From a virus, in the IMG/VR virus record IMGVR_UViG_3300046786_000502, positions 32,001 to 96,000 of that record: a stretch of DNA of 64,000 nucleotides. One strand, 5' to 3'. The first letter of the stretch is position 1; each line of letters opens with the position of its first letter. Under the pieces are notes generated by a model. That model was not told where the DNA came from. It saw nothing but the letters and a program-made list of their open reading frames with translations, and made no database searches. The position numbers were made by a program, and so were the translations under genes. Positions 32,292 to 55,941 of the stretch are shown here, in pieces.

Positions 32292-33080
32292 GTGTCAGAC
32301 AAGCCACTAGAGATACGATATATCCCACCTTATCTATATGGTAAGCAGCCTGGGATGTCTGAGCATATCCCTCCTGAACCTGCCGTTAGGCATATCCCAG
32401 AGTGGTATCGATCTCTAGCTAGGCACAACAAATCTAATGATGATATAACTCTAGATCCACAGAATCATATTGGCAATGATGGTGCACAGGTATCTACAAA
32501 GATGTGTATGCCATATTTTGATGCACTAACTGCAGGGTATGTTTATGTTCTAGAAGATGACTTGTATGTTGATTTAGATAAAGATGGTCATCCAATCCTA
32601 TCTTGGAAGAATGATATCATGCTTGTAGATACAAGAATTATCTTCGATGTTCCACTAATCGATAACTGCCACCCAATTCATTATGGATGGAGACAGAACT
32701 GGTATTATGAAACACCACCAGGATACTCAGTTTTAATTACCCACCCAATGAACAGATTTGACCTACCATTCTATACTCTATCTGGAATAGTAGAGTCAGA
32801 TATCTGGGGTCTTCCAGTGTTTACAGCGTTTCAACTTAAAAGAAATTTTAGGGGGGTTATCCCAAAGGGCACACCACTCTTCCAGGTAATTCCATTCAAG
32901 AGGGATAACTGGGAGCTGAAGGTAGACGATAGCCAAGAAGCAATTGATGAGCATTGGTTTAGGGCTGAGAACAGAAGATCTATGCTATACGGATACTACA
33001 AGAAGACTGCATGGAGAAAAAAGCTATTTGGAATCTTTAATAAGAAAGATGACAAGGGGACAGATCACGATGACGTTTGA
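32292..33080 (+). CDS. DUF6065-like protein, paralog of the previous gene
   Basis: PEWYR, KMCMP..DA..AGY, TPPGYSVLITHP.NR, IPKGTPLFQVIPFKR. Confidence 0.65.
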   Translation: MSDKPLEIRYIPPYLYGKQPGMSEHIPPEPAVRHIPEWYRSLARHNKSNDDITLDPQNHIGNDGAQVSTKMCMPYFDALTAGYVYVLEDDLYVDLDKDGHPILSWKNDIMLVDTRIIFDVPLIDNCHPIHYGWRQNWYYETPPGYSVLITHPMNRFDLPFYTLSGIVESDIWGLPVFTAFQLKRNFRGVIPKGTPLFQVIPFKRDNWELKVDDSQEAIDEHWFRAENRRSMLYGYYKKTAWRKKLFGIFNKKDDKGTDHDDV

Positions 33081-33972
33081 TAAAAAGATCGAAGACTATA
33101 AGATAATATTTGTTGTTACGTCCTATAAGGATAAGAACTTTATAGATTTTCTTAAGCACACATATGATGTAACACACCCACACTGTTATTTTGAGGTGTA
33201 TGAATCTAACCCAATTATTCATGATTTGGAAATCAAAAAGCTAGATTTTAATGTGGCATATGATTATAATATCTGGGATTCAATAGAGAGCCCAGTTTCT
33301 AAAAAGACTAAACGCCTAGAATGGGTTGCTAGAGATAACAGGAATGATAATGATGTTGTATGCTTTATAACACCAGACACTATCCTTTCCAAAGATTGGT
33401 ATGTCGATGTTATCAAGTTCTTAAAAGAAAATCCAAACTCAGTCATCTCTGGTAACGGTAAGGCAAAGATTGAGCAAAAGGATTATTTTTCATATCAGAT
33501 TAACTTTGAAGAGTCTAGCCAGTGGGAAAAAAATCAGATTGTGACAAAGCACTTTATGGTTGGTTTTGCTAGAACGTTCAAGCCTATCAAGGGCCCAGGG
33601 TATTTAAAGTACAATGGAGAAGATGAAGCGTGGACACTAGAGCTATTATCAAATAATATAGATATATATGGTGCACCATCATCCTTGTATACAGACACTA
33701 AGAATAGATCTATGGAGACTACTTATAAAACTTGGTCACCTGACCATAATTACAACGTAGTTGTTGATTTGATTAAGGGGAATAACCTTGACAAGTATAA
33801 CGTTACAGAACAGGGATTGGAAAAATTCTTGTCTGCTCATAGCTCCATAAATCCAGACGAGCTGTACCCACTACCATATCCTACAAATGATGTTGACTAT
33901 GACCCATACAATCTCAAGATGCATGAGGTTGATGCTAGAAGATTTATCGCTGGAGTAAAGGCTATTTACTAA
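33070..33972 (+). CDS. Degenerate GT-A glycosyltransferase-like protein (Gnt1-like)
   Basis: IIFVVTSYKD N-terminus and YNGEDE motif as in paralogs, but DSH replaced by TPD. Confidence 0.55.
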   Translation: MTFDKKIEDYKIIFVVTSYKDKNFIDFLKHTYDVTHPHCYFEVYESNPIIHDLEIKKLDFNVAYDYNIWDSIESPVSKKTKRLEWVARDNRNDNDVVCFITPDTILSKDWYVDVIKFLKENPNSVISGNGKAKIEQKDYFSYQINFEESSQWEKNQIVTKHFMVGFARTFKPIKGPGYLKYNGEDEAWTLELLSNNIDIYGAPSSLYTDTKNRSMETTYKTWSPDHNYNVVVDLIKGNNLDKYNVTEQGLEKFLSAHSSINPDELYPLPYPTNDVDYDPYNLKMHEVDARRFIAGVKAIY

Positions 33973-34592
33973 TGACAAATTTAATTCATGTTATACCTAA
34001 TTTTGTAGATGCAGAAGATGCAGAACTTTGGATGAAAGAAGCAGATCATCCATCTGCTAGAGAAGACTATCCAGATTATTATAATGATAGATTTGGTGGT
34101 ACAGCCTTACCATATAACGACAACACAAGATATTTAAATAAAAAGTATGGTCGTAAAGCTGCAGAATATGTTAAGCAATTGTATGGATTTAAAAGTCCAG
34201 TACATGTGTATAAGGTATTTATGAATCACACTACAGATGTTGGATATTCTGGTGGTGTACACACTGACTCAGTTGATCCAGAACCATGGATAGAGTGGTC
34301 AGCAGTTCTATATCTAGACGATAAGTTTACTGGGGCAAACCTACATTTTCCAAATCAGGACTATATCCATATACCAAAGCCACTAGAGGCTGTGATATTT
34401 CCATCTTCTGGAACATCGCACGTTCACGGCATATCAGAAATGAAGAGTGGTGAAAGATATTCTATAGTCGTTTGTCTGACAAGTCTTCCATGGAAAGCTG
34501 ATCCAGATATGCTGGAATCAGATGATAATATGGATTATGTTGGTGGATCGTGGGACATGGAAAAAGAGGAGAAAAAGCGTGGAATGGCGTAA
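33972..34592 (+). CDS. 2OG-Fe(II) oxygenase (P4Hc-like)
   Basis: VHTD, SAVLYL, HFP, IFPS, HVHG, SGERY. Confidence 0.85.
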   Translation: MTNLIHVIPNFVDAEDAELWMKEADHPSAREDYPDYYNDRFGGTALPYNDNTRYLNKKYGRKAAEYVKQLYGFKSPVHVYKVFMNHTTDVGYSGGVHTDSVDPEPWIEWSAVLYLDDKFTGANLHFPNQDYIHIPKPLEAVIFPSSGTSHVHGISEMKSGERYSIVVCLTSLPWKADPDMLESDDNMDYVGGSWDMEKEEKKRGMA

Positions 34593-35241
34593 AGACTATT
34601 ACAAGCCAAGAATTATCAAGAATGTTCTGACAGAAGAAGAGATTGATGAGCTAACTGCTGCTGTCCATTTTGCCAGAAACAATCAGGGATACTCTCCTGT
34701 TGTATTTAAGTGGTGGGGCAGACTATCTCATGATGTAACCGTTCCAGAAAGTGTTAAGAAAAAGTTTGACAGCATAGTCAAACAGATTGATCCAAGCTTT
34801 AATCAGGTAGATCAGAATTCATTTATATACTCTGGAATATATGGAAAGAAGACCCATCTACCGCCACACCAAGATGCTGGTGGAAAATTGGAAATAACCC
34901 TTGACTATCAACTAGATGCAAATGTTAGTTGGCCAGTAGTTGTAGAGGGCGAAGAGTTTGTACTTGAAAACAATGATCTGTTAATTTTTGGTGGGGCATC
35001 ATATGTGCACTGGAGAACAGAGAAATTTTTAACAGAAGATGAGCACGTTGACATGTTTAGTGTTAGCTATGCACGTCCAGAGTATGCTCAAGAATTTAAC
35101 AGTAACCGTGAAACCTACATGGCAGATGTTGACAAGAGAATGCTAGAGGCACACAGAATATATAATCCATCTTTTGATACAAGATCTTGCATAAGTAATG
35201 ACCAGATAGACCACTCAAGATGCAGTCACGAAGAATTATAA
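34579..35241 (+). CDS. 2OG-Fe(II) oxygenase-like protein (paralog of 13640/14197)
   Basis: LPPHQD, DYQLD, WPV, HWR. GTG start with gaggag SD. Confidence 0.7.
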   Translation: MEWRKDYYKPRIIKNVLTEEEIDELTAAVHFARNNQGYSPVVFKWWGRLSHDVTVPESVKKKFDSIVKQIDPSFNQVDQNSFIYSGIYGKKTHLPPHQDAGGKLEITLDYQLDANVSWPVVVEGEEFVLENNDLLIFGGASYVHWRTEKFLTEDEHVDMFSVSYARPEYAQEFNSNRETYMADVDKRMLEAHRIYNPSFDTRSCISNDQIDHSRCSHEEL

Positions 35242-35312
35242 ATAATATAAAGTTCTTTTTTTGGAAAATCAAGAATAGAAAAAAGCTTAAGAAGAAGGAC
35301 TTTATTTATTAA
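35220..35312 (+). CDS. Lys-rich micropeptide MQSRRIINNIKFFFWKIKNRKKLKKKDFIY
   Basis: Fills the gap; TAATG-coupled to the SGNH-like gene; C-terminus resembles ORF 51414-51512. Confidence 0.55.
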   Translation: MQSRRIINNIKFFFWKIKNRKKLKKKDFIY

Positions 35313-36121
35313 TGGGCTTGTTGTTTGACTTTGGGGAAGGCTCAAAAGGCAGTGGAATGAAGTTCTCAAGGGGACTGCAGTACAGTGGATATAGCCAAGA
35401 CTTTGGTCTCAGGGATTCCAGACTGAACCGTATTGAACAGCTAAATAGTTTAGGTTTCAGATGCGATGAGTTTACTAAAACCCACAATGGCAGACATATA
35501 TTATTTGCTGGATGCTCTTTTACATGGGGAGATGCATTGCCTAAAGAAGAGTCTTGGCCTTACCTTCTCTTAAAAGACCTAGAGAAAACTGAGCCAGTAA
35601 GTGGATTCTTTAGCGTTGCCTATCCTGGATCAAGCATTGCACATCAGATATCATTAATATTTAAATACATAAATGATTATGGAAACCCAGATGTAATATT
35701 TTTTATGATGCCAAATCTTGGAAGATTCTTTACTATTGTAGAAGATCATAACCAGATTACCTCATCAATTATAAAGCCAAACACCCACAAAGAATGTCCA
35801 CAGTCCTTTGAACTAGTGGCACACATATCTTTTGAGATGTACTCAATGCTAGATCAATATTGTAGGTCAAATAGTATCAAGCTGGTATCATCTTCTTGGC
35901 AACACTCAGAAGATAAAAATATAGTTGGAAACACTGCAGAATTATTTGATGGCAAGTTTGAAACCTTTTTCTCATACAGAGATATGGGCGAGGGTAAATG
36001 GATGTATGAATATATGCAAACAGATAAGGATGCCAAGATTTTAGCTAGTGATAATGCTCATCCTGGTAAAGCTAGACAGGCCTGGTTTGCACACATTATG
36101 CTGAATAAGTATTTAAATTAA
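35312..36121 (+). CDS. SGNH/GDSL-like hydrolase or acyltransferase
   Basis: NSLGFRCDEF, LFAGCSFTWG, PGSS, DNAHPG. Confidence 0.7.
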   Translation: MGLLFDFGEGSKGSGMKFSRGLQYSGYSQDFGLRDSRLNRIEQLNSLGFRCDEFTKTHNGRHILFAGCSFTWGDALPKEESWPYLLLKDLEKTEPVSGFFSVAYPGSSIAHQISLIFKYINDYGNPDVIFFMMPNLGRFFTIVEDHNQITSSIIKPNTHKECPQSFELVAHISFEMYSMLDQYCRSNSIKLVSSSWQHSEDKNIVGNTAELFDGKFETFFSYRDMGEGKWMYEYMQTDKDAKILASDNAHPGKARQAWFAHIMLNKYLN

Positions 36122-37027
36122 CTTGCATGTTACTGGATCATATCCAGCAAACTCAATATACTCTTCAATTGAGCGTTCTGTAAGTGCACCATTAATTGGA
36201 TCATATATCTTATTAATAAAGATAGACTTAAAATATTCATGGTCCTCTTGCTCTTTTTGACCCCAGGCCTGTTGCCACTTTGGATCCTTGTACCTTGAAT
36301 ACTTGATGTACGAGTCTGGATCCGCATGCTTGTAGTCATAGCCAATCAGGTAGCATCCAGCAGAGCCAATAATATTGTAACCACCTGTATACGCTCTAAG
36401 CATCATCATAGGCTGTTCATATTTGAATAGAATGTTGTTGGCCTGTGGTACATCATATAAGAATTGTGTTTTTCCAAATAGATGTCCTGCACATACAAAT
36501 CGCTCTATAGTCTGCACATTTTGTTTTGTAATCTGCTTGCCCATAATTGGTCCACCATAAATCTCAAACCACTCTTCATCTGGCTCAGCTGTCCATGTAG
36601 AGCCTCTAAACTCTCCATCCCAATCCGTAAAGGTTGTTGGGATATATCCACCAATAATGCTTTTGCCAAAATTAGCATTGGCTTCATCTAGCTCTCTTAT
36701 GAAGTCAGCGTCCCAGTTGTCTGCAAATTTTGTGTGGGAGTCAACTTGCAAAAAATAATCCTCATCTTGTACCATAGTCATGGCAACTTCACCACGTATT
36801 TTTGTGAGGGACAGTGGGGCAGTATTAGCATCTATCCAAGTAAGCCTTACCTCTGGACCAAGATTATATATATCATTAATCATCCACCTATCTTCTTCGT
36901 AGCCCTGGAAGACACAGCCAAACACAACCCTATCCTTTTCAGATGCTGTAGCATAAGCTGATTTGATAGTGTTGATTATGAATGGATCTCTCCAAGCAGA
37001 TATCTGAACAATTATCTTATTTTCCAT
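36113..37027 (-). CDS. GlcNAc-transferase family (Gnt1/GT60-like) glycosyltransferase
   Basis: IIVQISAWRDP, EDYFLQVDSHTKF..NWD, YEQ...RAYTGGY. Confidence 0.8.
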   Translation of the reverse strand: MENKIIVQISAWRDPFIINTIKSAYATASEKDRVVFGCVFQGYEEDRWMINDIYNLGPEVRLTWIDANTAPLSLTKIRGEVAMTMVQDEDYFLQVDSHTKFADNWDADFIRELDEANANFGKSIIGGYIPTTFTDWDGEFRGSTWTAEPDEEWFEIYGGPIMGKQITKQNVQTIERFVCAGHLFGKTQFLYDVPQANNILFKYEQPMMMLRAYTGGYNIIGSAGCYLIGYDYKHADPDSYIKYSRYKDPKWQQAWGQKEQEDHEYFKSIFINKIYDPINGALTERSIEEYIEFAGYDPVTCKLI

Positions 37028-37081
37028 GATTTTCCTTACGTGATATAATTAAGTATACCAGAACGCCTAAAGGGAGGTAGT

Positions 37082-37672: not shown

Positions 37673-37706
37673 TGTGTTAAAATAGATTGTACAGAAGGAG
37701 GGCCAA

Positions 37707-38465: not shown

Positions 38466-38495
38466 TTGACAAGCATTCCCATTGGGTGGTATACT
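38466..38495 (+). promoter_or_regulatory. SigA-type promoter
   Basis: TTGACA-N18-TATACT with extended TG. Confidence 0.65.
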
Positions 38496-38930: not shown

Positions 38931-39170
38931 ATGGATGCAGTAGCAGAAGTAAAAGAGTGGGTATTGACAGCAAATGATCGCTGTGACTCTTGTGGGGCTC
39001 AGGCCTATGTTCAGGTAACTGGTGTTTCTGGTGACCTACTATTTTGTGCCCACCATTACAATTCCATTATGGATAACGCTGTTGGATATGACAAGATGAT
39101 GAAGTTTGCATACTCATTTATTGATGAGCGTGAACGACTACAAGAGAACAGGACAAAGGGAGATGACTAA
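38931..39170 (+). CDS. Actinobacterial small zinc-binding protein
   Basis: LTANDRCDSCGAQAYV...LLFCAHH. Confidence 0.8.
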   Translation: MDAVAEVKEWVLTANDRCDSCGAQAYVQVTGVSGDLLFCAHHYNSIMDNAVGYDKMMKFAYSFIDERERLQENRTKGDD

Positions 39171-40170
39171 GAGAGTATTGCTGACTGGCTCATCAGGCCT
39201 GCTTGGCTCTCATACCCTTAAGAGGATTTTGCAAACAACTGATTGGGATGTTGTGTGCCTATCAACATTTAACCATACTGGCATTCAGGATCGTGTTATC
39301 GAGGCTGCCAATCTAAACACTGACAAATATCGTGCAAGAGTTAAGGTGTTGATTTGTGACCTGTCTTCTCCAATTTCAGATGTCACTAAGTCAAAAATTG
39401 GAAAGATTGACTACGTTATTAACTTTGCTAGTGAAAGTCATGTGACAAGAAGTATAGAAAATCCTACACCATTTATTTTGAACAATGTTCAGCTCATCTG
39501 TAACCTTTTAGATTGGGCAAGAGAAAATCCAGTAGAAAAGTTTTTGCATATTTCTACAGATGAAGTTTTTGGTCCATATCAGAATAGAGTTTTTACAGAG
39601 TGGGATCCTCATCTTCCTAGCAATCCATACAGTGCTTCTAAGGCTGCTCAGGAAAATATTGCATTCTCTTACTGGAGAACCTATGGGGTTCCAGTAGGCA
39701 TTGTAAATATTATGAATATCGTTGGTGAATATCAAAACGTAGAAAAGTATACGCCAATGATCATGAAGAAGGTTATGAACGATGAGGTTCTAGACGTACA
39801 TACCTATGACAATGGAAGCAAGATTGGTAGACGAAGCTGGCTTTATGTTGGCAATATGGCATCAGCTGTTTTGCATATTCTTGGACAAAGCTTTGATTCA
39901 GTTAATGAGTCAAATAAACTAAGTAGATGGAACATTGCTGGAGATGGCGACTATTCTAATCTTGAATGGGCAGAAAAAATTGCAGGTATTATTGGAAAAG
40001 ATCTAAAATATAGATTAGTAGATACAGCATCTTCTAGACCAGGCTATGATGCTAGTTATGCACTAAATAACCAGAAGCTACTCAATTCTGGATGGAAGCC
40101 ACCATACGATTTAGATGAGGCATTGGTAGATGTCGTTAAGTGGTATATGGAGCATCCAGAATGGTTGTAA
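39163..40170 (+). CDS. dTDP/NDP-glucose 4,6-dehydratase (RmlB-like)
   Basis: TGSSGLLG, ASESHVTRSI, STDEVFG, PYSASKA. Confidence 0.9.
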   Translation: MTKRVLLTGSSGLLGSHTLKRILQTTDWDVVCLSTFNHTGIQDRVIEAANLNTDKYRARVKVLICDLSSPISDVTKSKIGKIDYVINFASESHVTRSIENPTPFILNNVQLICNLLDWARENPVEKFLHISTDEVFGPYQNRVFTEWDPHLPSNPYSASKAAQENIAFSYWRTYGVPVGIVNIMNIVGEYQNVEKYTPMIMKKVMNDEVLDVHTYDNGSKIGRRSWLYVGNMASAVLHILGQSFDSVNESNKLSRWNIAGDGDYSNLEWAEKIAGIIGKDLKYRLVDTASSRPGYDASYALNNQKLLNSGWKPPYDLDEALVDVVKWYMEHPEWL

Positions 40171-46777: not shown

Positions 46778-46833
46778 GGCAGTTAACCCTGGGCATGGTT
46801 TAAAACTGCCCACATTATGCTATAATTAAGCTT

Positions 46834-47283
46834 ATGGATAATTCAACTATTGTGAGCCAGCTACAAGCATTGCTGGCAGATAACATTGCTCTAAAATTTA
46901 AAGCACACGGATACCACTGGAATGTTGAAGGAGATGACTTCAAACAGTTCCACGATTTTTTCGGGGATATCTATGAAAATTATGATGCTGCAACAGATAC
47001 ATATGCAGAGTGGATAAGAGTATTCCAAGCGTATGCCCCATACAGATTGGTAGATTTCTTTGATGCCTCATCTGTTGGCGAACCATCTATTGTAGGTGAC
47101 CCACAGCCAATGCTAGCTGACTTATATACATCTATTGAAAAACATATTGCAGACTTAATAGTTGCAGGAAAGATGGCTACTGCAGCAAATGAATTTGGGT
47201 TGGCAAACTTTTTTGCAGATCGTCAAACTATTTCACAAAAATTCTGCTGGCAAATTCGTGCAAGTATTGAAATAGAAGATTAA
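46834..47283 (+). CDS. dps: Dps (DNA protection during starvation) ferritin-like protein
   Basis: HGYHWNVEG..F..FH.FF..IYE...D.YAE.IR. Confidence 0.9.
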   Translation: MDNSTIVSQLQALLADNIALKFKAHGYHWNVEGDDFKQFHDFFGDIYENYDAATDTYAEWIRVFQAYAPYRLVDFFDASSVGEPSIVGDPQPMLADLYTSIEKHIADLIVAGKMATAANEFGLANFFADRQTISQKFCWQIRASIEIED

Positions 47284-47393: not shown

Positions 47394-47426
47394 ATGTTAT
47401 AATTGGTATGTAAAGAACGGATTATA

Positions 47427-48479: not shown

Positions 48480-49296
48480 TTTTAATCAGATTGCTGAATT
48501 ACTGAATGGGGCAGTCCTAGAAAAAAGATCTACCAATGTAGATAAGCTTAGGTCTGAGTATAGATACTATTATGCATGCAATACTGTTATGCAAAGATAT
48601 ATGGTAAAACCGTTTAGCTTTAAGGTTGAAAGCGGAGAGGCCTCATATCGTATGCATAATTTGAAGTCTCCAGACTTGGGATATCTTTATGCTAATGAAA
48701 TGCTAACTGAAGATATGTTTAAGGCCTTCCTCAATAGCTTTGATATCTTTAGAAATTCTGAAGGTGCTAAGCCATTTCATCCTGCAGAATCCTACAGTTT
48801 AGTGGTGCGAAAAGCTAAAACTAGAATTCTGGATATGTATGGCGGTACATTGCCACAAGATAAGAGAGAGTTGATTCGTAGACTTGATCTTGCATACAAT
48901 CACTACAATAACTTTAGACTTACATCGTTTGCCAGACCATCACATGGAGACCCATGCTTGTCAAATGTTGTCATCACAAAAAGTGGAAATGTAAAGATGT
49001 TTGATCCCAAGGGTATAGAGTTTTTCTATTTAGATGAATACTATGACATTGCAAAAATATCACAGAGTATTCATGGTGGCTATGAGCATATAGTTCATGA
49101 CAAGACCAATTTTGTTCCACAATACCAATCAATTTTTGAAAAATATCTAGATGCTAATAAAATAAACATTGGGCTAGTGCGTGTGTATGAGGCATCGCTG
49201 TTTATATCTATGTGTCCAATGCACCAGGATAGACCTGACCATATAGATAGATTTTTTAATACGGCAGATAAGATACTGAAAGAGGTTAACTTTTGA
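48451..49296 (+). CDS. APH/choline-kinase-like phosphotransferase
   Basis: HGDPCLSN, FDPKG, YYDIAKISQS. Confidence 0.75.
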   Translation: MPKSLYRTRNFNQIAELLNGAVLEKRSTNVDKLRSEYRYYYACNTVMQRYMVKPFSFKVESGEASYRMHNLKSPDLGYLYANEMLTEDMFKAFLNSFDIFRNSEGAKPFHPAESYSLVVRKAKTRILDMYGGTLPQDKRELIRRLDLAYNHYNNFRLTSFARPSHGDPCLSNVVITKSGNVKMFDPKGIEFFYLDEYYDIAKISQSIHGGYEHIVHDKTNFVPQYQSIFEKYLDANKINIGLVRVYEASLFISMCPMHQDRPDHIDRFFNTADKILKEVNF

Positions 49297-49982
49297 TTAA
49301 CGTTGTTGTTCTGATGTCTGGTCTTGGAACCAGATTCTATAATAGTGAATTTGAAAAGCCAAAGCCTTTTATAGAAGTAAATGGAAAAGAGATGTATCTA
49401 AGGTCTGCTCACAACTGTCCTGGTGATCGTTTTGTGTTTGTTGTTCAAAAAGAAAATTCTATTCGTTTCAACATGCACACCAAGGTTTTTTCTGAGTTTG
49501 AGTCTTCTGTGATTATTGAGTTGGATGGCGTTACATCAGGTCCTGCTGTATCTGCACTAAAAGCTGCAGAATGGATTGATAACGACAATGAACTGTTGAT
49601 TATAAATTCTGATCAAGAATTATTGTGGAATTATGATGACTTTATTTCTAAGGCAAGGGAGTCTGATGGTTGCGTTGTGGTTGTTGAACGAGAGGGAGAC
49701 CGCTGGTCTTTTGCAAAAGAAGTAGATGGTGTCGTTACACTGATAGCTGAAAAAAATCAAATAAGTAAAAATGCATTGTGTGGAATACATTATTTCAAAA
49801 AGGGTAGTGATTTTATTAAGTATGCAAAACAAATGTTAGAAGACGATAATAAAGTTAATAATGAATTCTATGTATCTAACGTATATAACTATGCCATTGA
49901 AGATGGCAAAAGAGTAACAATCTATAAAGCAGACGATATGCTTGATTATGGAACACCAGAAAGCTTGAGGGCCTATATATAA
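49293..49982 (+). CDS. Sugar-phosphate nucleotidyltransferase
   Basis: MSGLGTRF...KPKPFI, NSDQ, EKNQIS, NEFYVS, YGTPE. Confidence 0.85.
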   Translation: MINVVVLMSGLGTRFYNSEFEKPKPFIEVNGKEMYLRSAHNCPGDRFVFVVQKENSIRFNMHTKVFSEFESSVIIELDGVTSGPAVSALKAAEWIDNDNELLIINSDQELLWNYDDFISKARESDGCVVVVEREGDRWSFAKEVDGVVTLIAEKNQISKNALCGIHYFKKGSDFIKYAKQMLEDDNKVNNEFYVSNVYNYAIEDGKRVTIYKADDMLDYGTPESLRAYI

Positions 49983-51493
49983 TGCTTAATCTATTAGGAA
50001 TCAACAGATATGATCCAAAAGACATTGCACCACGTGTGATTGAAACTTTGAAAAATAGTCAAATAATTTTTGGAGAGCATGAGGATGCAGCCAAAGAATT
50101 TATGAAGATGGTTGGTGTAGACTATTCAAACAAAGAAGTCTATGAGGTAAATGCCAGCAATGAATCTAAATATGCTAGATGGGCGGTAGAACAGGTTAGG
50201 CTTGGTAAAAGCATTTCATTCCTTACTGGGGATGGGTATCCAGTTATTACAGATCCAGGATATAAGCTAGTAAATACGTTTATTCAAAATGCTGAAGAGA
50301 TTCGTGTATACCCTCAAGTATCTGCAATTGTTTCATCTGTTATCTTGTCTGGATATCTTGGTGCAAACAATGAGACATTCTTTTATGGTGGGATGCTAGA
50401 TTTCATGGACGAGAAGATGAAGCTAGAAGCAATGTCCTCAAGGGATACTATTGCGGTTTATCTGTTCCAGGGCACTTTTCCTGCAATAAGAAATCTTGAA
50501 GAAATATATGGACCAGAACGTGATGTAGTTATTTGTGTAAACATGGGTCACGACACACAACAGGTTATCCACACTAAGGTTGGATTTTTGGCCAATGGGA
50601 TTCCTGGAAAATCTATTTATGCTACTTTTGTAATTGCTCCAATAAATAGAGAGTCATTCTTTAATATGAACAAAATGCCAAACAACGTTCTTGAGTATGG
50701 CAACTTAAAAGAAATTGGAATACAGCAAAGAACTAATTATATTCATAATAGTTTTAATTTTAGGTGTGATGAGTTTACCCAAAACCATTCTGAAAAACTA
50801 CACGTTCTTTTTAGTGGTTGCTCTAATACTTGGCCACAGGCAATTGATGAGGACAGGGGCTGGGCAAAACAAATGTACTACAGCCTAGATCAATCATATA
50901 ATTTAAGTGGATACTACAATCTTGGAATGCCTGGTTCTACCATATCTGAGATTTGTCAAAATGTAATGAGTTATTGTAAGATTTTTGGCAAGCCAAAAAT
51001 AATATTTTTAAATCTCCCAGATGCTGGTAGAGAATCAAATATTCCAGAGAGTCCAAACAGTAAAGATGAGTATACATCTTTTGAAAAACAACAGTATGCA
51101 GACAAGGAATATGAAAAGCTTGAGGGATATTGTGCTGTAAACAACATATTGCTAATTACTTTTAGCTGGACAGACACTATGGTTAAATCTGGAGGCTACG
51201 TTCTTTCTAACCTTAAAGAGCTGCTTGGTAAAAATCACAAAAATGTATCTATATCAAATAAGTTTAATACGTATAAACATTTTGATAAAAATGATTTTAA
51301 AGAATATGTAGTGAAATACTTCGAGGATAACCCAGAAGATCATGATGCTGATGTGGCAAGGGATGCTGATCACCCAGGTCACGCCATACATTGGGCATGG
51401 TACAATTGCTTATATGAAATGTTTACAAAAAATACTCAATACCTTAGCTTCATTGAAGGCTTCAAGAAGGTACAAGAAAGCAATCAAGCGTAA
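49982..51493 (+). CDS. Fusion: RsmI-like (tetrapyrrole methylase fold) methyltransferase + SGNH-like domain
   Basis: N-half DIAPR...GDGYPVITDPG...PQVSA; C-half NFRCDEF, LFSGCS, NLGMPGS, DADHPG. Confidence 0.7.
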   Translation: MLNLLGINRYDPKDIAPRVIETLKNSQIIFGEHEDAAKEFMKMVGVDYSNKEVYEVNASNESKYARWAVEQVRLGKSISFLTGDGYPVITDPGYKLVNTFIQNAEEIRVYPQVSAIVSSVILSGYLGANNETFFYGGMLDFMDEKMKLEAMSSRDTIAVYLFQGTFPAIRNLEEIYGPERDVVICVNMGHDTQQVIHTKVGFLANGIPGKSIYATFVIAPINRESFFNMNKMPNNVLEYGNLKEIGIQQRTNYIHNSFNFRCDEFTQNHSEKLHVLFSGCSNTWPQAIDEDRGWAKQMYYSLDQSYNLSGYYNLGMPGSTISEICQNVMSYCKIFGKPKIIFLNLPDAGRESNIPESPNSKDEYTSFEKQQYADKEYEKLEGYCAVNNILLITFSWTDTMVKSGGYVLSNLKELLGKNHKNVSISNKFNTYKHFDKNDFKEYVVKYFEDNPEDHDADVARDADHPGHAIHWAWYNCLYEMFTKNTQYLSFIEGFKKVQESNQA

Positions 51494-51512
51494 GAAAGAC
51501 TATATATATTGA
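51414..51512 (+). CDS. Lys-rich micropeptide MKCLQKILNTLASLKASRRYKKAIKRKKDYIY
   Basis: Own TG-n-TACAAT element just upstream; its stop overlaps the carbamoyltransferase TTG start. Confidence 0.55.
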   Translation: MKCLQKILNTLASLKASRRYKKAIKRKKDYIY

Positions 51513-52927
51513 AAATCTTTGGCTTTAACGAAACCTCTCATGATGCTTCTGTGTCTGTAATTAAAAATGGAATGATTCTATTTGCTGGTCATGCTGAAAG
51601 ATATAGCAAAGAAAAAAATGACTGGTATACGAACAAAGAATTGTGGAATGACGCATATATGTGGGGCAAGCCAGATGCCATTGCATACTATGAAAAGCCG
51701 TGGCTAAAGAAGATTAGGCTATCTTTGCGTGGTGGTGCTGCAGACTGGAAGCCATTACATAGATATGATGTTGCATTTAAACATCACTACTCTCATGCAT
51801 GTGCAGGATACTATACTAGCCCATTCGACAAGGCAGTAATTGTTGTCCTTGATGCGATGGGAGAGTTTGCGACATCTACTGTTTGGTCTGGCGATGGCGA
51901 AGATATAAAGTTAGTCAAAGAAGTTAAATATCCGCTAAGCTTTGGTCTATTTTATACTGCTTTTACCAAACTAATAGGACTAAAGCCAAATGAGCACGAG
52001 TACATTCTTATGGGAATGGCAGGGTATGGAGATCCAACAACCTACTATGAAGACGTATTATCATATTTTCCCAGCATAACTAGCCAGAAGTATAACTACC
52101 ACAAGGGGATAACAGACTGGCCATACAACATTCTTAAAGAACAGGACAAGTTTGACATTGCTGCTGCTGTTCAGTTTGTATATCAAGAAAGACTAATGGA
52201 GTTTATGTCTAAAGTTAGACAGGACCTACCAGAATACAATAATCTTGTTTTTATGGGTGGGTGTGCCCTGAATGCCTCAGCTAATACAAAGCTTTGGGAT
52301 CTGTTTGATGATATTTGGATAATGCCAAATCCAGGAGATGCTGGAAGCTCTTTAGGTGCAGCTCTTGCACTACGTGGACAGCATGTTAAGTGGGAAGGCC
52401 CATATCTTGGGCATGATCTTGGTAACGAATACCCAGTTGATGCAATCTTTAATGAGATAATGACAAATAAAATTTGTGCTGTTGCTGCAGGTAGAGCAGA
52501 GTTTGGACCACGTGCATTAGGAAACAGAAGTATCTTGGCAGATCCACGTGACCCAGATATTAAAGATAAAGTTAATCTAATTAAACAAAGAGAACTCTTT
52601 AGGCCATTTGCCCCTGTAGTCATGGCAGAACATGCATCTGAATGGTTTGATATGGATTATGAATCTCCATACATGCAATACACACCCAAGTGCCTCAAGC
52701 CTGAGCTGATTCCATCAGTGGTCCATGTAGATGGTACATCTAGAGTTCAGACAGTCACAAAGGAGCAGCATCCAGGGCTGTACGAGGTTCTGAGACGTTT
52801 TTATGAGGCAACTGGAGTTCCAGTACTACTGAATACCAGTTTAAATGTAAAGGGCCAACCATTGCTTAATGACAAAGAAGACATTAAGCTTTGGGAGCAA
52901 ACATACAATACCAAGATTGTGATATAA
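51509..52927 (+). CDS. Carbamoyltransferase (NodU/CmcH family)
   Basis: HDAS, ERYS..K, HHYSHA, MGMAGYG, GGCALN, GDAG, EFGPRALGNRS, RPFAP, LNTS.N. Confidence 0.95.
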   Translation: MKIFGFNETSHDASVSVIKNGMILFAGHAERYSKEKNDWYTNKELWNDAYMWGKPDAIAYYEKPWLKKIRLSLRGGAADWKPLHRYDVAFKHHYSHACAGYYTSPFDKAVIVVLDAMGEFATSTVWSGDGEDIKLVKEVKYPLSFGLFYTAFTKLIGLKPNEHEYILMGMAGYGDPTTYYEDVLSYFPSITSQKYNYHKGITDWPYNILKEQDKFDIAAAVQFVYQERLMEFMSKVRQDLPEYNNLVFMGGCALNASANTKLWDLFDDIWIMPNPGDAGSSLGAALALRGQHVKWEGPYLGHDLGNEYPVDAIFNEIMTNKICAVAAGRAEFGPRALGNRSILADPRDPDIKDKVNLIKQRELFRPFAPVVMAEHASEWFDMDYESPYMQYTPKCLKPELIPSVVHVDGTSRVQTVTKEQHPGLYEVLRRFYEATGVPVLLNTSLNVKGQPLLNDKEDIKLWEQTYNTKIVI

Positions 52928-52934
52928 TTTTAGT

Positions 52935-53132: not shown

Positions 53133-54088
53133 ATACAAAAACTATATTTGTAACCATTCCGTCTTACAATGACGTATCTCTTTTGCGTACCCTAGACAGG
53201 GCATTAGAAACAGCACGGTATCCAGAGAACATATACTTCTGTATTGGGCTACAGTATTCTGAAGAACTTATGCCAGATCTATCTAAGTATAAAGACAACC
53301 CAAATTTTATTTTCCTAACATACGATGTAGATAAACGTCCAGGAGTTTATTGGATTAGAAGAGAGATGGCAGAGAAACACTCTGACCAAGACTACTTCCT
53401 AATGATAGACTCACATATGAATTTTGTTGAAAACTGGGATGTTAGATTAATCAATGACTACGAGTCATTAGTTAGACATCATGGTACAAGGACAATTCTC
53501 TCTAAGCCAACAATGTCTGAGGTTGGACATACATTTGATAATGGGCATATACATGATATCTGTAGGTGGAAAGCAGACTTTTCTTTTGATCCAAACAGTA
53601 TAGAAAGAACAATACTGCCATGGGTTGATATGGTTCCATGGGATGGAACAAGATTTATTAAGCACCTTTTATCATGCAGCCACTTCTTTTTTACTAACAA
53701 GCTTTGGCTTGAAGAGGTTGGGTTTTTCAATACCATCAGATCATATAGTGAAGAAATGACAATCGCTGTTTCATCCTTTTTATCTGGATGGGACTTCTAT
53801 TCTATGCCAGAATTTATACACATAGGTCATGATGATGACGAAACATCAAAGAAAATCTACGGAGGAATGTATACTCTGGCACAGGGTAAAAGGTATCAGG
53901 CAATCTTTGAGAATGATGAACTAAAGAAAGAGATTGATAGTTTTTGCTTGCTGGACAACTCCAATATCTTTAAGGTAAGAAATCAGGCAAGATCGATAGA
54001 TGAGTTTTATATTGAAGCTGGAGATGAGATATCTGATGCAAGAAAACAGCTATTGATTAATTTAAATCTAAATCAATTCCAAGCTTAA
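53108..54088 (+). CDS. GlcNAc-transferase family (Gnt1/GT60-like) glycosyltransferase
   Basis: IFVTIPSYND, ARYPEN, QDYFLMIDSHMNF..NWD, SEE...GWD. Confidence 0.82.
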   Translation: MAIDNRPVNTKTIFVTIPSYNDVSLLRTLDRALETARYPENIYFCIGLQYSEELMPDLSKYKDNPNFIFLTYDVDKRPGVYWIRREMAEKHSDQDYFLMIDSHMNFVENWDVRLINDYESLVRHHGTRTILSKPTMSEVGHTFDNGHIHDICRWKADFSFDPNSIERTILPWVDMVPWDGTRFIKHLLSCSHFFFTNKLWLEEVGFFNTIRSYSEEMTIAVSSFLSGWDFYSMPEFIHIGHDDDETSKKIYGGMYTLAQGKRYQAIFENDELKKEIDSFCLLDNSNIFKVRNQARSIDEFYIEAGDEISDARKQLLINLNLNQFQA

Positions 54089-54845
54089 GCTGCCTATCTT
54101 TAATTAGCTCAAGGTTAAGTTTATATTCTTCATCCATTTGCTGAGCCCATTCGCTTTTACGAACCATGTCCTTAATCAAATGATATTCTTCTGGCTTTTC
54201 TGTTGGCAAACCATTTGCAGCACCACTCGAAAAGTTAATGTCATCAGAAAAGTGTTCGGTTAGATGTTTTACTCTATCTTCAACTTCTTCTTTTGACAAC
54301 ACTCTTACATTATCCGACACACCAACTAGTCTGTGTATGTGTGGCAAGATGTCTGCAACCATAGATGTTGTCTGCTCAAATGTAAATGGTATAACTCTGT
54401 TAATTGCTTTTCGTAGTCCATAGCTATAGCCAAGCCACATCATAGACTCCTGATACATTGACTCACGAATGTATTCTTCTTTTTGTGTCTTGAAGAATTC
54501 CATATTACCCTCAACAATCTCTGGTCTTCCAGCAATTGTTGCGTTACCATAACCATAAGATGTTTTTAAAATTTGCGAGGCAACGGCATCAAAAGGATCT
54601 CTCATTGTAGTAATCATGCTAATAGAGTCATCAAAGGTAGCATGAAAAAGCAATGGGTCATGTGCTAGGGTAATCCAGGTATCCTTATGGCTCCATTCGC
54701 CAGCATACCTTGGCTTATGCAAGTCTCTCTGATTGTGTCCATAAGACTCACGTAGAGTGTCAAAAAAGAATGAACTTGCTGACCGTGGCATGAAATTTAA
54801 AATTATTTTATACAAGACTTCCCCTATATTCGCATCGTTGTGCAT
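54057..54845 (-). CDS. Sulfotransferase-like P-loop protein
   Basis: 5'PSB-like MPRSASS and 3'PB-like MRDPFDAVAS motifs. Confidence 0.6.
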   Translation of the reverse strand: MHNDANIGEVLYKIILNFMPRSASSFFFDTLRESYGHNQRDLHKPRYAGEWSHKDTWITLAHDPLLFHATFDDSISMITTMRDPFDAVASQILKTSYGYGNATIAGRPEIVEGNMEFFKTQKEEYIRESMYQESMMWLGYSYGLRKAINRVIPFTFEQTTSMVADILPHIHRLVGVSDNVRVLSKEEVEDRVKHLTEHFSDDINFSSGAANGLPTEKPEEYHLIKDMVRKSEWAQQMDEEYKLNLELIKDRQLKLGIDLDLN

Positions 54846-55941
54846 TAATTATATCACGATACACGTCTGAAGGAATTTCGATGCCTTCATTAAAAGCAAT
54901 TTCCTTGATTGCATCCACAAATGTTTGGTCAGATATGTATGCTGAGTTTTTTAAACATACCCTATCATCATTTTTAATCTCTAATGTTATTGGGTCATAG
55001 CCTAGAAAGTTTATAAACTCAGATATAGATCTGGTCTTATATGCTCCCCACGGTAGGTCATACCCTATATGACCACTCTCAAACACTTCCTTGAATTTCC
55101 TATATGATTCTTTGACCACATCAAGGTAGATACCTTCTAGCTCTTCTGTTTCCCATCTCACATGGCGATGCAAGTCTTTGTTCTTTTTGTGATCATCATC
55201 CCAATAGTCAAAGTTATTTGTATACATGTGAATTGGAGATACTACCTCATATCCTGCAGTCCAGGTTCTTAGAAGCATTATCTGTTGTTCAAATGGCTGT
55301 GCCATCTCCATTGGGTGTTGCACTGTTTTAGCATAATAAGCATCAGTGAATACACAATTACCATTATAAAATTTTTCTTTTATCATTAGGTTGTTTGGCT
55401 TTACGTGCACCCTGCCATTAAGAGGTGTGACTGCAGGTGATCGAATTACATCTTTAATTGACTCCCACTCTTCAAGATTTGCATATGCGGTTAGTGGGTC
55501 TGCCCACAGTGGGTCTTCCCATCCCAAAAAGTATACTGTTTGAGAATTGATTATACTTTTTCCAAAAGTTCTATTTGCAATAAGGTGCTCAGCCTTAAGC
55601 ATTATGTCCCAATTTTTTCTAAACTTTGTGTGTGCATCTACCTGCATCCAATATTTTTCATCAGTCATAAAAGAATCAACGATATCTCTTTTAATTTCAC
55701 ACAGAAATGGAGAGGCATCTCTGCCGTGAACCACCTTTAGCTTAAGATTAACTATCTCAGATAAAGATGCAATCTTTTCAATCATCCACTCGTCACCATC
55801 CAGCACCTGTAGAAGTACTCCATAGGTTATGCTATCTGGATTTAATGCCTGACTATGTGCAGACATGATCGTTTCATATACCATTGGATCTCTCCATGCT
55901 GGTATGGATACAAAAATACTCAAATTCTTCCTCTCAGCCAC
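54808..55941 (-). CDS. GlcNAc-transferase family (Gnt1/GT60-like) glycosyltransferase
   Basis: IFVSIPAWRDP, EKYWMQVDAHTKF..NWD, FEQ...RTWTAGY. Confidence 0.82.
   Translation of the reverse strand: MAERKNLSIFVSIPAWRDPMVYETIMSAHSQALNPDSITYGVLLQVLDGDEWMIEKIASLSEIVNLKLKVVHGRDASPFLCEIKRDIVDSFMTDEKYWMQVDAHTKFRKNWDIMLKAEHLIANRTFGKSIINSQTVYFLGWEDPLWADPLTAYANLEEWESIKDVIRSPAVTPLNGRVHVKPNNLMIKEKFYNGNCVFTDAYYAKTVQHPMEMAQPFEQQIMLLRTWTAGYEVVSPIHMYTNNFDYWDDDHKKNKDLHRHVRWETEELEGIYLDVVKESYRKFKEVFESGHIGYDLPWGAYKTRSISEFINFLGYDPITLEIKNDDRVCLKNSAYISDQTFVDAIKEIAFNEGIEIPSDVYRDIINAQRCEYRGSLV

What the first reader, a model, noticed from the sequence alone, without database searches (positions are those of the whole stretch)
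33070..55941. Candidate phage-encoded hydroxylation plus O-glycosylation system (Gnt1/GT60-like expansion with prolyl-hydroxylase-like oxygenases)
Seen: five paralogous GT-A proteins (33070, 36113, 45359, 53108, 54808) share I(F/I)V.I..(Y/W)..(D/E); four keep ..D(S/A)H..F...WD. The window also has seven 2OG-Fe(II) oxygenases, and two of them sit between the GTs at 33-37 kb. Known: this GT signature matches the GlcNAc-transferase family of Dictyostelium Gnt1 (GT60), which glycosylates hydroxyproline made by the prolyl 4-hydroxylase PhyA on Skp1; glycosylated virions are known in some mycobacteriophages. Inference: this phage hydroxylates and O-glycosylates proteins (virion or host surface) using a eukaryote-like hydroxyproline route. 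I am not aware of this pairing being described in phages.
Basis: partly seen in the sequence, partly recalled or inferred. Interest (0 to 1): 0.85.

Follow-up and report, generated by a model that had tools for sequence, protein, structure and literature searches.

The report
Phage protein hydroxylase and glycosyltransferase kit
An uncultured 117-kb phage, probably of actinobacteria, carries five sugar transferases of the family that glycosylates proteins in protists, plus seven proline-hydroxylase-type enzymes and a sugar-tailoring kit, so it probably hydroxylates and sugar-coats proline-rich proteins, something not yet shown experimentally for bacterial viruses.

Summary
Four ORFs (36113, 45359, 53108, 54808) pass Pfam PF11397 (GlcNAc, the GT60 family). 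The fifth (33070) is a divergent relative (hhalign 98.9%) that has lost the DxH motif. All seven oxygenases in the window keep the HxD...H triad. Family A matches solved prolyl hydroxylases best. Family B has the 2OG-oxygenase fold.

- The GT model lies closest to mucin-type polypeptide GalNAc-transferases.
- An oxygenase gene sits beside the GT60-like gene in 17 of 41 viral loci and 17 of 39 bacterial loci.
- Four of seven long relatives examined fuse PF11397 with PF13640 domains.
- In several unrelated loci a Pro/Thr/Ser-repeat protein abuts the cluster.
- One phage lineage fuses a hydroxyproline-arabinosyltransferase-like domain, an O-FucT domain and a GT60 domain.
- No TET/JBP, TAGT or hydroxymethylase signal supports DNA modification.

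Not shown: hydroxyproline as the attachment residue, GlcNAc as the sugar, or the acceptor in this phage. Twenty-four of the 41 viral loci have no detected neighbouring oxygenase, so direct Thr/Ser glycosylation remains possible.

My literature searches found no report of this pairing in phages. This scan has noted it before on other DNA (75 notes in at least 63 genomes).

The parts
30857..31567 (+). Unnamed protein, first gene of the conserved run p30857 / DUF6065-like x2 / 33070 / oxygenase
   Evidence: No Pfam or NCBIfam hit. The same gene order is seen in L001 and L012. It recurs, whole or in part, in 15 of 80 loci of related phages.
31551..32291 (+). DUF6065-like protein, paralogue 1
   Evidence: 32% identical to 32292-33080. 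Homologues lie beside GT60-like genes in L012, L022, L034 and L037.
32292..33080 (+). DUF6065-like protein, paralogue 2
   Evidence: PF19541 at E 4e-4, below the cut-off. ESM Atlas neighbours include DUF6065 clusters. A clear DUF6065 (E 2.4e-64) sits in the L027 GT60 island. No PDB match.
33070..33972 (+). Divergent GT60-like GT-A protein that lacks the DxH metal motif (ITPD instead)
   Evidence: hhalign probability 98.9%, E 1.9e-17 against 73 GT60-like sequences. 2 of 13 homologues are precomputed as PF11397. No Pfam hit of its own.
33972..34592 (+). Prolyl-hydroxylase-like 2OG-Fe(II) oxygenase, family A
   Evidence: BLAST paralogue of the PF13640 proteins. phrog_61 at 4.8e-10. Invariant H97, D99 and H152. 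The family profile matches P3H1 at 1.1e-11 and B. anthracis P4H at 1.2e-8.
34522..35241 (+). 2OG-Fe(II) oxygenase, family B
   Evidence: AF2 model with pLDDT 82.8. Best folds are Trichoplax PHD Z 14.8, 6n1f 14.5 and PHD2 14.4. H116-x-D118...H163-x-R165 is invariant in 44 sequences. No Pfam hit.
35312..36121 (+). Unnamed paralogue family (also 56422-57252 and the C-terminal half of 49982-51493). The SGNH-hydrolase-like motifs are seen by eye only.
   Evidence: BLAST family. No Pfam or NCBIfam hit. The SGNH reading is my recollection of motifs, not a tool result.
36113..37027 (-). GT60-like glycosyltransferase
   Evidence: PF11397 at 4.3e-19. AF2 pLDDT 96.8. Closest folds are GalNAc-T1 Z 21.3 and T. 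gondii GalNAc-T3 Z 20.1.
39106..40170 (+). NDP-sugar 4,6-dehydratase/epimerase
   Evidence: PF16363 at 5.9e-42 and PF01370 at 4e-41.
40140..41357 (+). Sugar C-methyltransferase
   Evidence: PF08484 at 5.4e-28 and PF08421 at 8.1e-14.
45359..46309 (+). GT60-like glycosyltransferase
   Evidence: PF11397 at 7.1e-14.
47403..48479 (+). GT61-family glycosyltransferase
   Evidence: PF04577 at 4.6e-18.
49293..49982 (+). Sugar-1-phosphate nucleotidylyltransferase
   Evidence: PF00483 at 2.7e-11. PDB 4evw at 3.6e-13.
49982..51493 (+). TP_methylase domain fused to the 35312-type domain
   Evidence: PF00590 at 1.2e-14. The C-terminal half is 31% identical to 35312-36121.
51509..52927 (+). NodU/CmcH-type carbamoyltransferase
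   Evidence: PF16861 at 1.7e-54 and PF02543 at 8.3e-39. Carbamoyltransferases lie beside GT60-like genes in L013, L015, L023-L025, L027-L030 and L033, and in the cultured phage XacN1.
53108..54088 (+). GT60-like glycosyltransferase
   Evidence: PF11397 at 1.9e-16.
54057..54845 (-). Unnamed protein, steady neighbour of the 54808-type GT
   Evidence: Its homologue directly follows that GT in L002-L005. No family hit.
54808..55941 (-). GT60-like glycosyltransferase
   Evidence: PF11397 at 1.4e-15, profile positions 116-350 of 352.
56422..57252 (+). Paralogue of 35312-36121
58274..58822 (+). Prolyl-hydroxylase-like oxygenase. In relatives its orthologue overlaps a GT60-like gene.
   Evidence: PF13640 at 3.8e-11. 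L002, L003 and L004 have the oxygenase and GT60 ORFs overlapping.
61056..61643 (-). Prolyl-hydroxylase-like oxygenase
   Evidence: PF13640 at 1.3e-11.
17626..18372 (+). Prolyl-hydroxylase-like oxygenase
   Evidence: PF13640 at 8.9e-14.
13640..15006 (+). Two tandem family B oxygenases (13640-14200 and 14197-15006)
   Evidence: Paralogues of 34522-35241. Shared H-x-D...H-x-R.
991..2097 (+). Candidate acceptor: tail-module protein with an N-terminal (T/A/S)P(K)P run and a KKTTT repeat
   Evidence: 13 Pro in 30 residues, the highest in the genome. Sequence shown. No Pfam hit. It lies between large structural ORFs and a tail protein. Its role as acceptor is inferred only.

Best explanation
The phage encodes a protein-tailoring system. 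Prolyl-hydroxylase-type 2OG-Fe(II) oxygenases hydroxylate residues in Pro-rich, mucin-like or collagen-like stretches of phage proteins; proline is the most likely residue. GT60-like retaining GT-A transferases then start O-linked glycans on those stretches, at the new hydroxyl or at neighbouring Thr/Ser.

The accompanying kit supplies and decorates the sugars. It comprises a 4,6-dehydratase, a C-methyltransferase, a sugar-1-P nucleotidylyltransferase, a GT61, a carbamoyltransferase and a methylase.

Shown here: family membership, folds, catalytic motifs, and the recurrent linkage of the two enzyme families with each other and with repeat proteins in other genomes.

Inferred: that the acceptor is protein, that the residue is Hyp, the sugar identity, and which proteins of this phage are modified. 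Candidates are 991-2097, the T-rich 2288-aa protein and the collagen-like protein, the last two outside the window.
For: (1) Family: 4 ORFs pass PF11397 and the fifth joins by profile comparison. As read in passages of PMC6939170, the GT60 members it describes are polypeptide alpha-GlcNAc-transferases, Gnt1 acting on Hyp and the T. cruzi enzyme.

(2) Fold: in the search of 48,161 chains, the two best matches to the 36113 model are polypeptide GalNAc-transferases, Z 21.3 (269 aligned) and Z 20.1. The next rows score 17.0.

(3) Oxygenases: the family A profile hits prolyl 3- and 4-hydroxylases and PHD2 at E 1e-11 to 1e-6, against 1.5e-4 for Tet-like enzymes.

(4) Linkage: an oxygenase ORF abuts the GT60-like ORF, or is one gene away, in 17 of 41 viral loci and lies within about 200 bp in 17 of 39 bacterial loci. 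One SAR86-type partner was checked as PF13640 at 8.7e-17. Orientations differ between lineages: overlapping co-directional, divergent and convergent.

(5) Fusion: 4 of the 7 long relatives scanned carry several PF11397 domains together with PF13640.

(6) Acceptors elsewhere: non-homologous Pro/Thr/Ser-repeat proteins lie 34-179 bp from the cluster in L013, L023, L072 and L073. A positional test over 9 classes gave a combined p of 9e-4, post hoc.

(7) L027: one ORF combines HPAT (27.6 bits against a cut-off of 23.9), O-FucT and GlcNAc domains next to a mucin-like protein.

(8) The genome holds a collagen-repeat protein (PF01391, 55.9 bits) and Pro-rich tail-module proteins.
Against: - No biochemical or proteomic data exist.
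- 24 of 41 viral loci and 22 of 39 bacterial loci show no oxygenase beside the GT60-like gene, though my small HMMs may miss some.
- In this window three of the four canonical GTs have no adjacent oxygenase, and no Pro-rich gene abuts any GT.
- The rate of Pro-rich ORFs is not higher in the viral GT60 loci (13 in 0.66 Mb) than in control loci of related phages (42 in 1.19 Mb, all apparently one orthologous gene). The acceptor argument therefore rests on adjacency, not on enrichment.
- Foldseek ranks teichoic-acid GTs (RmlT, TarP) level with GalNAc-Ts.
- The family B fold matches PHDs only about 1 Z unit above small-molecule and sugar-acting oxygenases.
- 33070 lacks the DxH motif and may be inactive.
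Confidence: 0.55

Rival explanations
1. The GT60-like enzymes glycosylate Thr/Ser of mucin-like phage proteins directly, as the T. cruzi GT60 enzyme does. The oxygenases do something unrelated, or only loosely related, such as other protein hydroxylations or sugar tailoring.
For: - 24 of 41 viral GT60 loci lack a detected neighbouring oxygenase.
- The repeat proteins near the clusters are as rich in Thr/Ser as in Pro; L027 is 41% Ser+Thr.
- Three of the four canonical GTs in the window have no oxygenase beside them.
- Earlier scan notes e1-5744141 and e1-5997883 reached this reading on other phages (unchecked by me).
Against: Fusions of PF11397 with PF13640, and overlapping or abutting oxygenase-GT pairs in several orientations and lineages, are hard to explain without a shared pathway. 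An HPAT-like domain is fused to a GT60 domain in L027.
Confidence: 0.2
2. The GTs and the sugar kit build or modify a non-protein glycan: host wall teichoic acid, another cell-envelope polymer or a free glycan. The purpose would be to change the infected cell's surface (superinfection exclusion), as prophage TarP does in S. aureus.
For: - Foldseek places RmlT and TarP among the top hits at E about 1e-9 to 1e-8. TarS, TarP and RmlT score Z 15.4-15.8.
- The window holds a full nucleotide-sugar kit.
- The probable host is an actinobacterium.
Against: - Polypeptide GalNAc-Ts stand 3-4 Z units above all polysaccharide and teichoic-acid GTs.
- The Pfam family is the polypeptide GlcNAc-T family.
- Repeat-protein genes, not polymer export or flippase genes, abut the clusters elsewhere.
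- In Morganella the GT60 gene lies between a fimbrial-protein gene and an OmpA-family gene.
Confidence: 0.13
3. The oxygenases and GTs hypermodify phage DNA: base hydroxylation followed by glycosylation, as in base J or in TET plus TET-associated glycosyltransferases.
For: - Weak Tet_JBP similarity: 12.5 and 11.1 bits and E 0.12.
- Tet-like chains appear at E 1.5e-4 in the PDB search.
- A sub-threshold TAGT hit overlaps the GT60 domain of L027 (21.8 bits against a cut-off of 27.5).
Against: - No Tet_JBP match reaches the 34.9-bit cut-off.
- None of the five window GTs has a TAGT hit at E <= 0.01.
- There is no PF00303 hydroxymethylase/thymidylate-synthase homologue. An ordinary ThyX is present.
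- Prolyl hydroxylases outscore Tet-like enzymes by 4-7 orders of magnitude.
Confidence: 0.04

Closest known systems
Skp1 hydroxylation/glycosylation pathway of Dictyostelium and Toxoplasma (PhyA prolyl 4-hydroxylase, then Gnt1, CAZy GT60)
   Same: The same two enzyme families occur together: PF13640-type P4H and PF11397/GT60. Passages of PMC6939170 state that Gnt1 is GT60 and needs the PhyA-made Hyp.
   Different: No later-acting GT74/GT2 (PgtA-type) domains were found in the 29 window ORFs scanned with Pfam. Presence of Skp1 was not tested. Here there are five GT60-like copies and eight oxygenases, plus carbamoyl- and methyl-transferases. The likely acceptors are repeat proteins, not one regulatory protein.
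[quoted passage not shown]
   Same: Same CAZy family (named as GT60 in PMC6939170). The candidate acceptors are mucin-like Thr/Pro-rich repeats.
   Different: That the T. cruzi enzyme acts on Thr without any hydroxylase is my recollection. The phage genes are often linked or fused to oxygenases.
Plant and green-algal Hyp-O-glycosylation of extensins and arabinogalactan proteins (P4H plus HPAT, GT95)
   Same: Pro/Ser/Thr/Ala repeat proteins lie next to a P4H-like enzyme. In L027 an HPAT-family domain (PF23452, over its cut-off) is fused to O-FucT and GT60 domains.
   Different: No HPAT hit in this window. The plant pathway details are recalled, not read here.
Chlorovirus PBCV-1 prolyl 4-hydroxylase (vCPH, PDB 5c5t) and mimivirus collagen hydroxylase/glucosyltransferase L230
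   Same: These are virus-encoded hydroxylases that act on the virus's own Pro-rich or collagen-like proteins. 5c5t is matched by family A (E 3.6e-5) and by family B (Z 12.3). This genome has a collagen-repeat protein.
   Different: Those are viruses of eukaryotes. Their substrates and the L230 activity are recalled, not read here. No GT60 partner is known to me there.
Mycobacteriophage virion O-glycosylation (Freeman et al. 2023; seen here only as a citation and one descriptive passage)
   Same: An actinobacteriophage that uses its own GTs to decorate virion proteins. This phage's polymerase is closest to those of Streptomyces phages.
   Different: I did not read the paper and did not compare GT families or sites. 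I know of no hydroxylase step there.
Phage TET/JBP plus TET-associated glycosyltransferase DNA hypermodification
   Same: A 2OG oxygenase followed by a GT-A transferase.
   Different: Tet_JBP and TAGT are not matched over their cut-offs, and there is no hydroxymethylase.

Membership tests
GT60 / Pfam PF11397 (GlcNAc) | Sequence match above the curated gathering score | tested here: met
   Four ORFs score 52.5-69.6 bits against a cut-off of 21. 33070 does not pass on its own, but aligns to the family profile at probability 98.9%.
GT60 / Pfam PF11397 (GlcNAc) | DxH metal-binding motif in a GT-A fold (the motif's role is recalled) | tested here: met
   D96 and H98 are invariant in 73 sequences. 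GT-A fold with pLDDT 96.8. Not met by 33070, which has ITPD.
GT60 / Pfam PF11397 (GlcNAc) | Transfers alpha-GlcNAc from UDP-GlcNAc to Hyp or Thr of a polypeptide | not testable with these tools
   Needs an enzyme assay or glycoproteomics.
Prolyl 4-hydroxylase-type 2OG-Fe(II) oxygenases (PF13640) | Pfam match over the cut-off and the HxD...H iron triad | tested here: met
   Three window ORFs score 44.2-52.7 bits against a cut-off of 27. The triad is invariant in 5 family A sequences. 33972 joins only by BLAST and PHROG.
Prolyl 4-hydroxylase-type 2OG-Fe(II) oxygenases (PF13640) | Family B (13640, 14197, 34522) belongs to the same family | tested here: inconclusive
   No Pfam hit. hhalign against family A gives probability 2%. 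No PDB sequence hit. The fold is a 2OG oxygenase, with PHDs on top but within about 1 Z unit of other oxygenases.
Prolyl 4-hydroxylase-type 2OG-Fe(II) oxygenases (PF13640) | Hydroxylates peptidyl proline | not testable with these tools
   The best solved relatives are prolyl hydroxylases. Specificity cannot be read from that.
Skp1 Hyp-glycosylation pathway | Later glycosyltransferases of the pathway (PgtA GT74/GT2 and further GTs) | tested here: not met
   Among the 29 window ORFs scanned with Pfam, the only GT families hit are PF11397 and PF04577.
Skp1 Hyp-glycosylation pathway | Skp1 as acceptor | not tested
   I ran no search for Skp1.
TET/JBP plus TAGT DNA base glycosylation | A TET/JBP-family oxygenase | tested here: not met
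   The best Tet_JBP match in the whole genome is 12.5 bits against a cut-off of 34.9.
TET/JBP plus TAGT DNA base glycosylation | A TAGT-family transferase or a source of hydroxymethyl-pyrimidine | tested here: not met
   No PF20691 hit at E <= 0.01 for the five GTs. No PF00303 match.
Hyp O-arabinosyltransferase (HPAT, PF23452) | Pfam match over the cut-off | tested here: not met
   None in the window ORFs scanned. Met only in the related viral locus L027 (27.6 bits against 23.9).

The most novel reading that the evidence does not exclude
Hydroxyproline-linked O-glycosylation, thought of as a plant, algal and protist trait, is widespread in tailed phages and some bacteria (SAR86-type genomes, Saccharibacteria). 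Phages use P4H-like plus GT60-like modules (with HPAT- and O-FucT-like partners in some lineages) to coat Pro/Thr-repeat fibre and tail proteins with carbamoylated, methylated glycans. In this reading the eukaryotic Skp1 PhyA/Gnt1 pair descends from this prokaryote-phage pool. The expansion in this phage to five GTs and eight oxygenases would then mean several acceptor sites or glycan types on one virion.
Probability: 0.3. Interest if true: 0.85.

Novelty: new variant of a known kind. Interest (0 to 1): 0.68.

Why it matters
If true, a bacterial virus makes mucin- or extensin-like glycoproteins by a hydroxylate-then-glycosylate route so far known from eukaryotes and their giant viruses.

That would bear on four things:
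- how phage fibres resist proteases and recognise hosts;
- how virions are seen by immune systems;
- where the protist Skp1 pathway came from;
- a new set of small, soluble peptide-glycosylating enzymes for glyco-engineering.

The same GT60-like plus carbamoyltransferase pair occurs in the cultured Xanthomonas jumbo phage XacN1, which gives an experimental handle.

Tried and rejected
- Megablast of 33000-56000 against isolated phages: no match.
- tblastn of one GT found only four Xanthomonas/Stenotrophomonas jumbo phages.
- PDB sequence searches with the GT profile gave only chance hemocyanin hits. Family B and the DUF6065-like profile gave nothing. The 48451 protein gave nothing useful.
- The first hhalign of 33070 against four GTs failed at 0.2%. 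It was superseded by deeper profiles.
- hhalign of family B against family A: 2%.
- hhalign of the four-paralogue family (genome 4634-7266) and of p30857 against the DUF6065-like and oxygenase profiles: all under 1%.
- NCBIfam gave nothing for 7 of 10 proteins.
- Pfam gave nothing useful for 9 of 10 Pro-rich proteins. L081 gave only repeat-type hits: ALTTAQ repeat, and CAAP1 below its cut-off.
- The rate-based control for Pro-rich ORFs did not show enrichment. The control loci are close relatives whose RNR-adjacent gene is itself Pro-rich. I therefore rely on the post hoc positional test.
- I considered and rejected DNA hypermodification.
- Literature searches found no paper on phage P4H plus GT60: 0 papers; 1, unrelated; 0.
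- I did not ask for supplements. They are closed, and none bears on a claim here.

Full report
**What the window is**

The window is bases 32001-96000 of a 116,893-bp IMG/VR virus record that CheckV rates as complete. It carries nine tRNA genes, a DnaB-like helicase, a DnaE-like polymerase, a UvsX-like recombinase, both ribonucleotide reductase subunits and a terminase. Portal, protease and capsid genes lie upstream of the window.

The polymerase is 53-56% identical to those of roughly 127-133-kb Streptomyces phages. A WhiB-like ORF is visible by eye at 42829-43125. G+C is 36-43%. The host is therefore probably a low-GC aquatic actinobacterium. That is an inference.

No isolated phage matches at the DNA level.

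**The observation**

Four of the five named ORFs pass Pfam PF11397 (GlcNAc) at 52.5-69.6 bits against a cut-off of 21. They form one BLAST family with 24-30% pairwise identity. All four keep D(S/A)H..F...WD. D, H, W and D are invariant across 73 relatives.

The fifth ORF, 33070-33972, has no Pfam or PHROG hit and failed a shallow profile test. With 13 homologues added it aligns to the family over 247 columns at probability 98.9%, E 1.9e-17. Two of those homologues carry a precomputed PF11397 hit. Its DxH is replaced by ITPD, so it may be catalytically altered or inactive.

Seven oxygenases lie in the window:
- Three pass PF13640.
- 33972-34592 is their paralogue.
- Three form a second family, B, with no Pfam hit. 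Family B has an invariant H-x-D...H-x-R and a predicted 2OG-oxygenase fold (pLDDT 82.8; best Z 14.8).

**What the enzymes resemble**

The 36113 model (pLDDT 96.8) is a GT-A fold. Foldseek puts the teichoic-acid rhamnosyltransferase RmlT, polypeptide GalNAc-transferases, the collagen hydroxylysine galactosyltransferase and TarP at similar E-values.

The exhaustive aligner separates them. Polypeptide GalNAc-T1 scores Z 21.3 over 269 residues and T. gondii GalNAc-T3 scores Z 20.1. SpsA and chondroitin polymerase score 17.0, and the teichoic-acid enzymes 15.4-15.8. No solved structure matches by sequence.

Passages of PMC6939170 state that Gnt1 is a GT60 enzyme specific for the PhyA-made hydroxyproline of Skp1. 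They also state that GT60 includes the T. cruzi polypeptide GlcNAc-transferase.

The family A oxygenase profile hits the following:

| Solved protein | E-value |
|---|---|
| Prolyl 3-hydroxylase 1 | 1.1e-11 |
| Bacillus anthracis P4H | 1.2e-8 |
| PHD2 | about 1e-6 |
| OGFOD1 | 1.5e-5 |
| Chlorovirus P4H | 3.6e-5 |
| Tet-like enzymes | 1.5e-4 |

**Linkage of the two families beyond this genome**

A profile of the four GTs finds 3,845 representative clusters at E <= 1e-3 in 1.84 billion proteins. Many are long multi-domain proteins. I scanned seven of these with Pfam. Four carry several PF11397 domains together with one or two PF13640 domains, three of them with an AhpC/TSA domain as well. The other three carry only GT domains.

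Of 41 viral loci with a relative of the GTs, 17 show an oxygenase ORF beside the GT60-like ORF:
- Overlapping or within 100 bp: L002, L003, L004, L021, L022, L023, L035.
- Within about 1 kb: L001, L006, L009, L010, L012, L037.
- In an oxygenase / carbamoyltransferase / GT60 run: L013, L015, L024, L025.

The other 24 show none. Several loci are near-duplicates, and the grouping is my own reading.

Of 39 bacterial loci, 17 have such an ORF within about 200 bp. Thirteen are divergent pairs, mostly in SAR86-labelled genomes, and four are convergent pairs in other proteobacterial MAGs. One SAR86-type partner was confirmed as PF13640 at 8.7e-17.

The pairing is therefore recurrent and occurs in several orientations. 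It is not universal.

**Acceptors**

In other loci a gene for a Pro/Thr/Ser-repeat protein sits next to the cluster:
- L013/L025 type: long PT/PS runs between small Cys-containing domains, 45-548 bp upstream of the oxygenase.
- L023: AP/TP runs plus a GPP stretch, 48 bp upstream.
- L027 type: 41% Ser+Thr and 20% Pro, about 1 kb upstream with an epimerase gene between.
- L072: 34 bp downstream of the GT.
- L073/L080/L081: a hydrophobic, signal-peptide-like N-terminus (by eye) followed by about ten PPPGGTTT units, 117-187 bp from the oxygenase.

These classes are not homologous to one another by BLAST. A positional test over nine classes gives a combined p of 9e-4, but I devised it after seeing the pattern.

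A rate-based control failed. Loci around the RNR gene of related phages hold a Pro-rich ORF in 42 of 80 cases. This is the orthologue of 25322-27550, a PA14-domain protein. Pro-rich proteins are therefore common in this phage group anyway.

In L027 the ORF beside the mucin-like gene combines three domains: HPAT (hydroxyproline O-arabinosyltransferase family, 27.6 bits against 23.9), protein O-FucT and GlcNAc. The same island holds a clear DUF6065 protein.

In Morganella a full-length GT60 (PF11397 at 1.4e-70) lies between a fimbrial-protein gene and an OmpA-family gene.

In this phage no repeat gene abuts a GT. The candidates are:
- 991-2097, with 13 Pro in 30 residues and KKTTT repeats, in the tail module;
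- the T-rich 2288-aa protein;
- the Pro-rich linker of 37707-38465, whose M23-peptidase and LysM labels are by eye;
- a collagen-repeat protein among tail-fibre genes outside the window.

One oxygenase (genome 7406-7942) sits just after the tail-fibre module. In L022 a GT60 / oxygenase pair sits just before it.

**The rest of the kit**

The window also holds a 4,6-dehydratase, a sugar C-methyltransferase, a GT61, a sugar-1-P nucleotidylyltransferase, a TP_methylase fusion and a NodU-type carbamoyltransferase.

Carbamoyltransferases accompany GT60-like genes in many loci and in the cultured phage XacN1. This suggests a carbamoylated sugar, which is an inference.

A conserved run of p30857, two DUF6065-like genes, 33070 and an oxygenase recurs in L001 and L012. 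It also appears, whole or in part, in 15 of 80 related loci, with variable downstream partners. The roles of p30857, the DUF6065-like proteins, 54057-54845 and the 35312 family are unknown.

**Rivals**

DNA hypermodification is unlikely. No Tet_JBP match reaches the cut-off. There is no TAGT hit for the window GTs and no PF00303 homologue. An ordinary ThyX is present.

Envelope-polymer glycosylation is not excluded, but fold ranking and gene context disfavour it.

Direct Thr/Ser glycosylation without Hyp is the strongest rival, given the many GT60 loci without an oxygenase.

**Novelty**

My full-text searches found no report of P4H plus GT60 in phages and nothing on DUF6065. They cover open-access papers and bioRxiv only.

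This scan has noted the same theme before: 75 notes in at least 63 genomes. They include a similar lake actinophage (e1-5976610) and the triple-fusion type (e1-5660566). Two follow-ups doubted the Hyp attachment (e1-5744141, e1-5997883). Those notes are unchecked AI notes. They agree with what I found independently, before I read them.

**Verdict**

The reading 'protein hydroxylation plus O-glycosylation' is the best-supported one, at about 0.55. The residue, the sugar and the acceptor are unproven.

Noticed in passing
window 25322-27550 (+): A 742-aa protein with a signal-peptide-like N-terminus (by eye) and a PA14 domain (PF07691, 1.7e-9). In 42 of 80 related phage loci the gene just downstream of the RNR small-subunit gene, apparently its orthologue, carries long PT/PE-rich linkers. 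This copy has almost none (2.3% Pro).
   Followed up: partly
L042:4634-7266 (genome 4634-7266, upstream of the window): Four tandem paralogues of about 220 aa (35-45% identical) with conserved W-H-E/D-H, HGYYCVNAEPS and ETGHPH motifs. They lie between the tail-fibre genes and a PF13640 oxygenase. No PHROG or Pfam hit, and no profile similarity to the oxygenases or to the DUF6065-like family.
   Followed up: partly
L044:15473-16363 (genome 111473-112363): A collagen triple-helix repeat protein (PF01391, 55.9 bits) with GxP, GxK and GxT triplets, among tail-fibre-like genes that wrap across the record's ends.
   Followed up: partly
window 31551-33080 and L027:16861-17931: DUF6065-family proteins travel with GT60-like clusters in unrelated phage lineages (L012, L022, L034, L037, L027). 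There is no solved relative and no paper. Function unknown.
   Followed up: partly
L057:6984-11610 (Morganella morganii contig): A full-length GT60 (PF11397 at 1.4e-70) between a fimbrial-protein gene and an OmpA-family gene. It is followed by a 211-aa Pro-rich ORF, with no oxygenase nearby. Similar loci occur in Rouxiella, Ewingella and Tatumella.
   Followed up: partly
L164 (Xanthomonas phage XacN1, ORF334-ORF333): The cultured jumbo phage XacN1 has a GT60-like 'glycosyltransferase family protein' directly followed by a carbamoyl transferase. It could serve as an experimental system.
   Followed up: no
L035:8415-12155 (giant-virus MAG contig): A GT60 domain fused to a tubulin-tyrosine-ligase-type ATP-grasp domain, next to a 591-aa protein with two PF13640 stretches.
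   Followed up: no
window 42829-43125, 46364-47283, 57501-57803: By eye only: a WhiB-like Cys-rich ORF, an Hsp20-like ORF, a Dps-like ORF and a GroES-like ORF. None was tested with a family search.
   Followed up: no
window 29935-30817 and 57408-58255: Nine tRNA genes: seven in one array (Asn, Asp, Leu, Trp, Thr, Glu, Gln), plus Ile and Arg.
   Followed up: no
window 48451-49296 (+): A 281-aa protein upstream of the nucleotidylyltransferase, with an HGD....N kinase-like motif by eye. No Pfam, NCBIfam or PDB match.
   Followed up: partly
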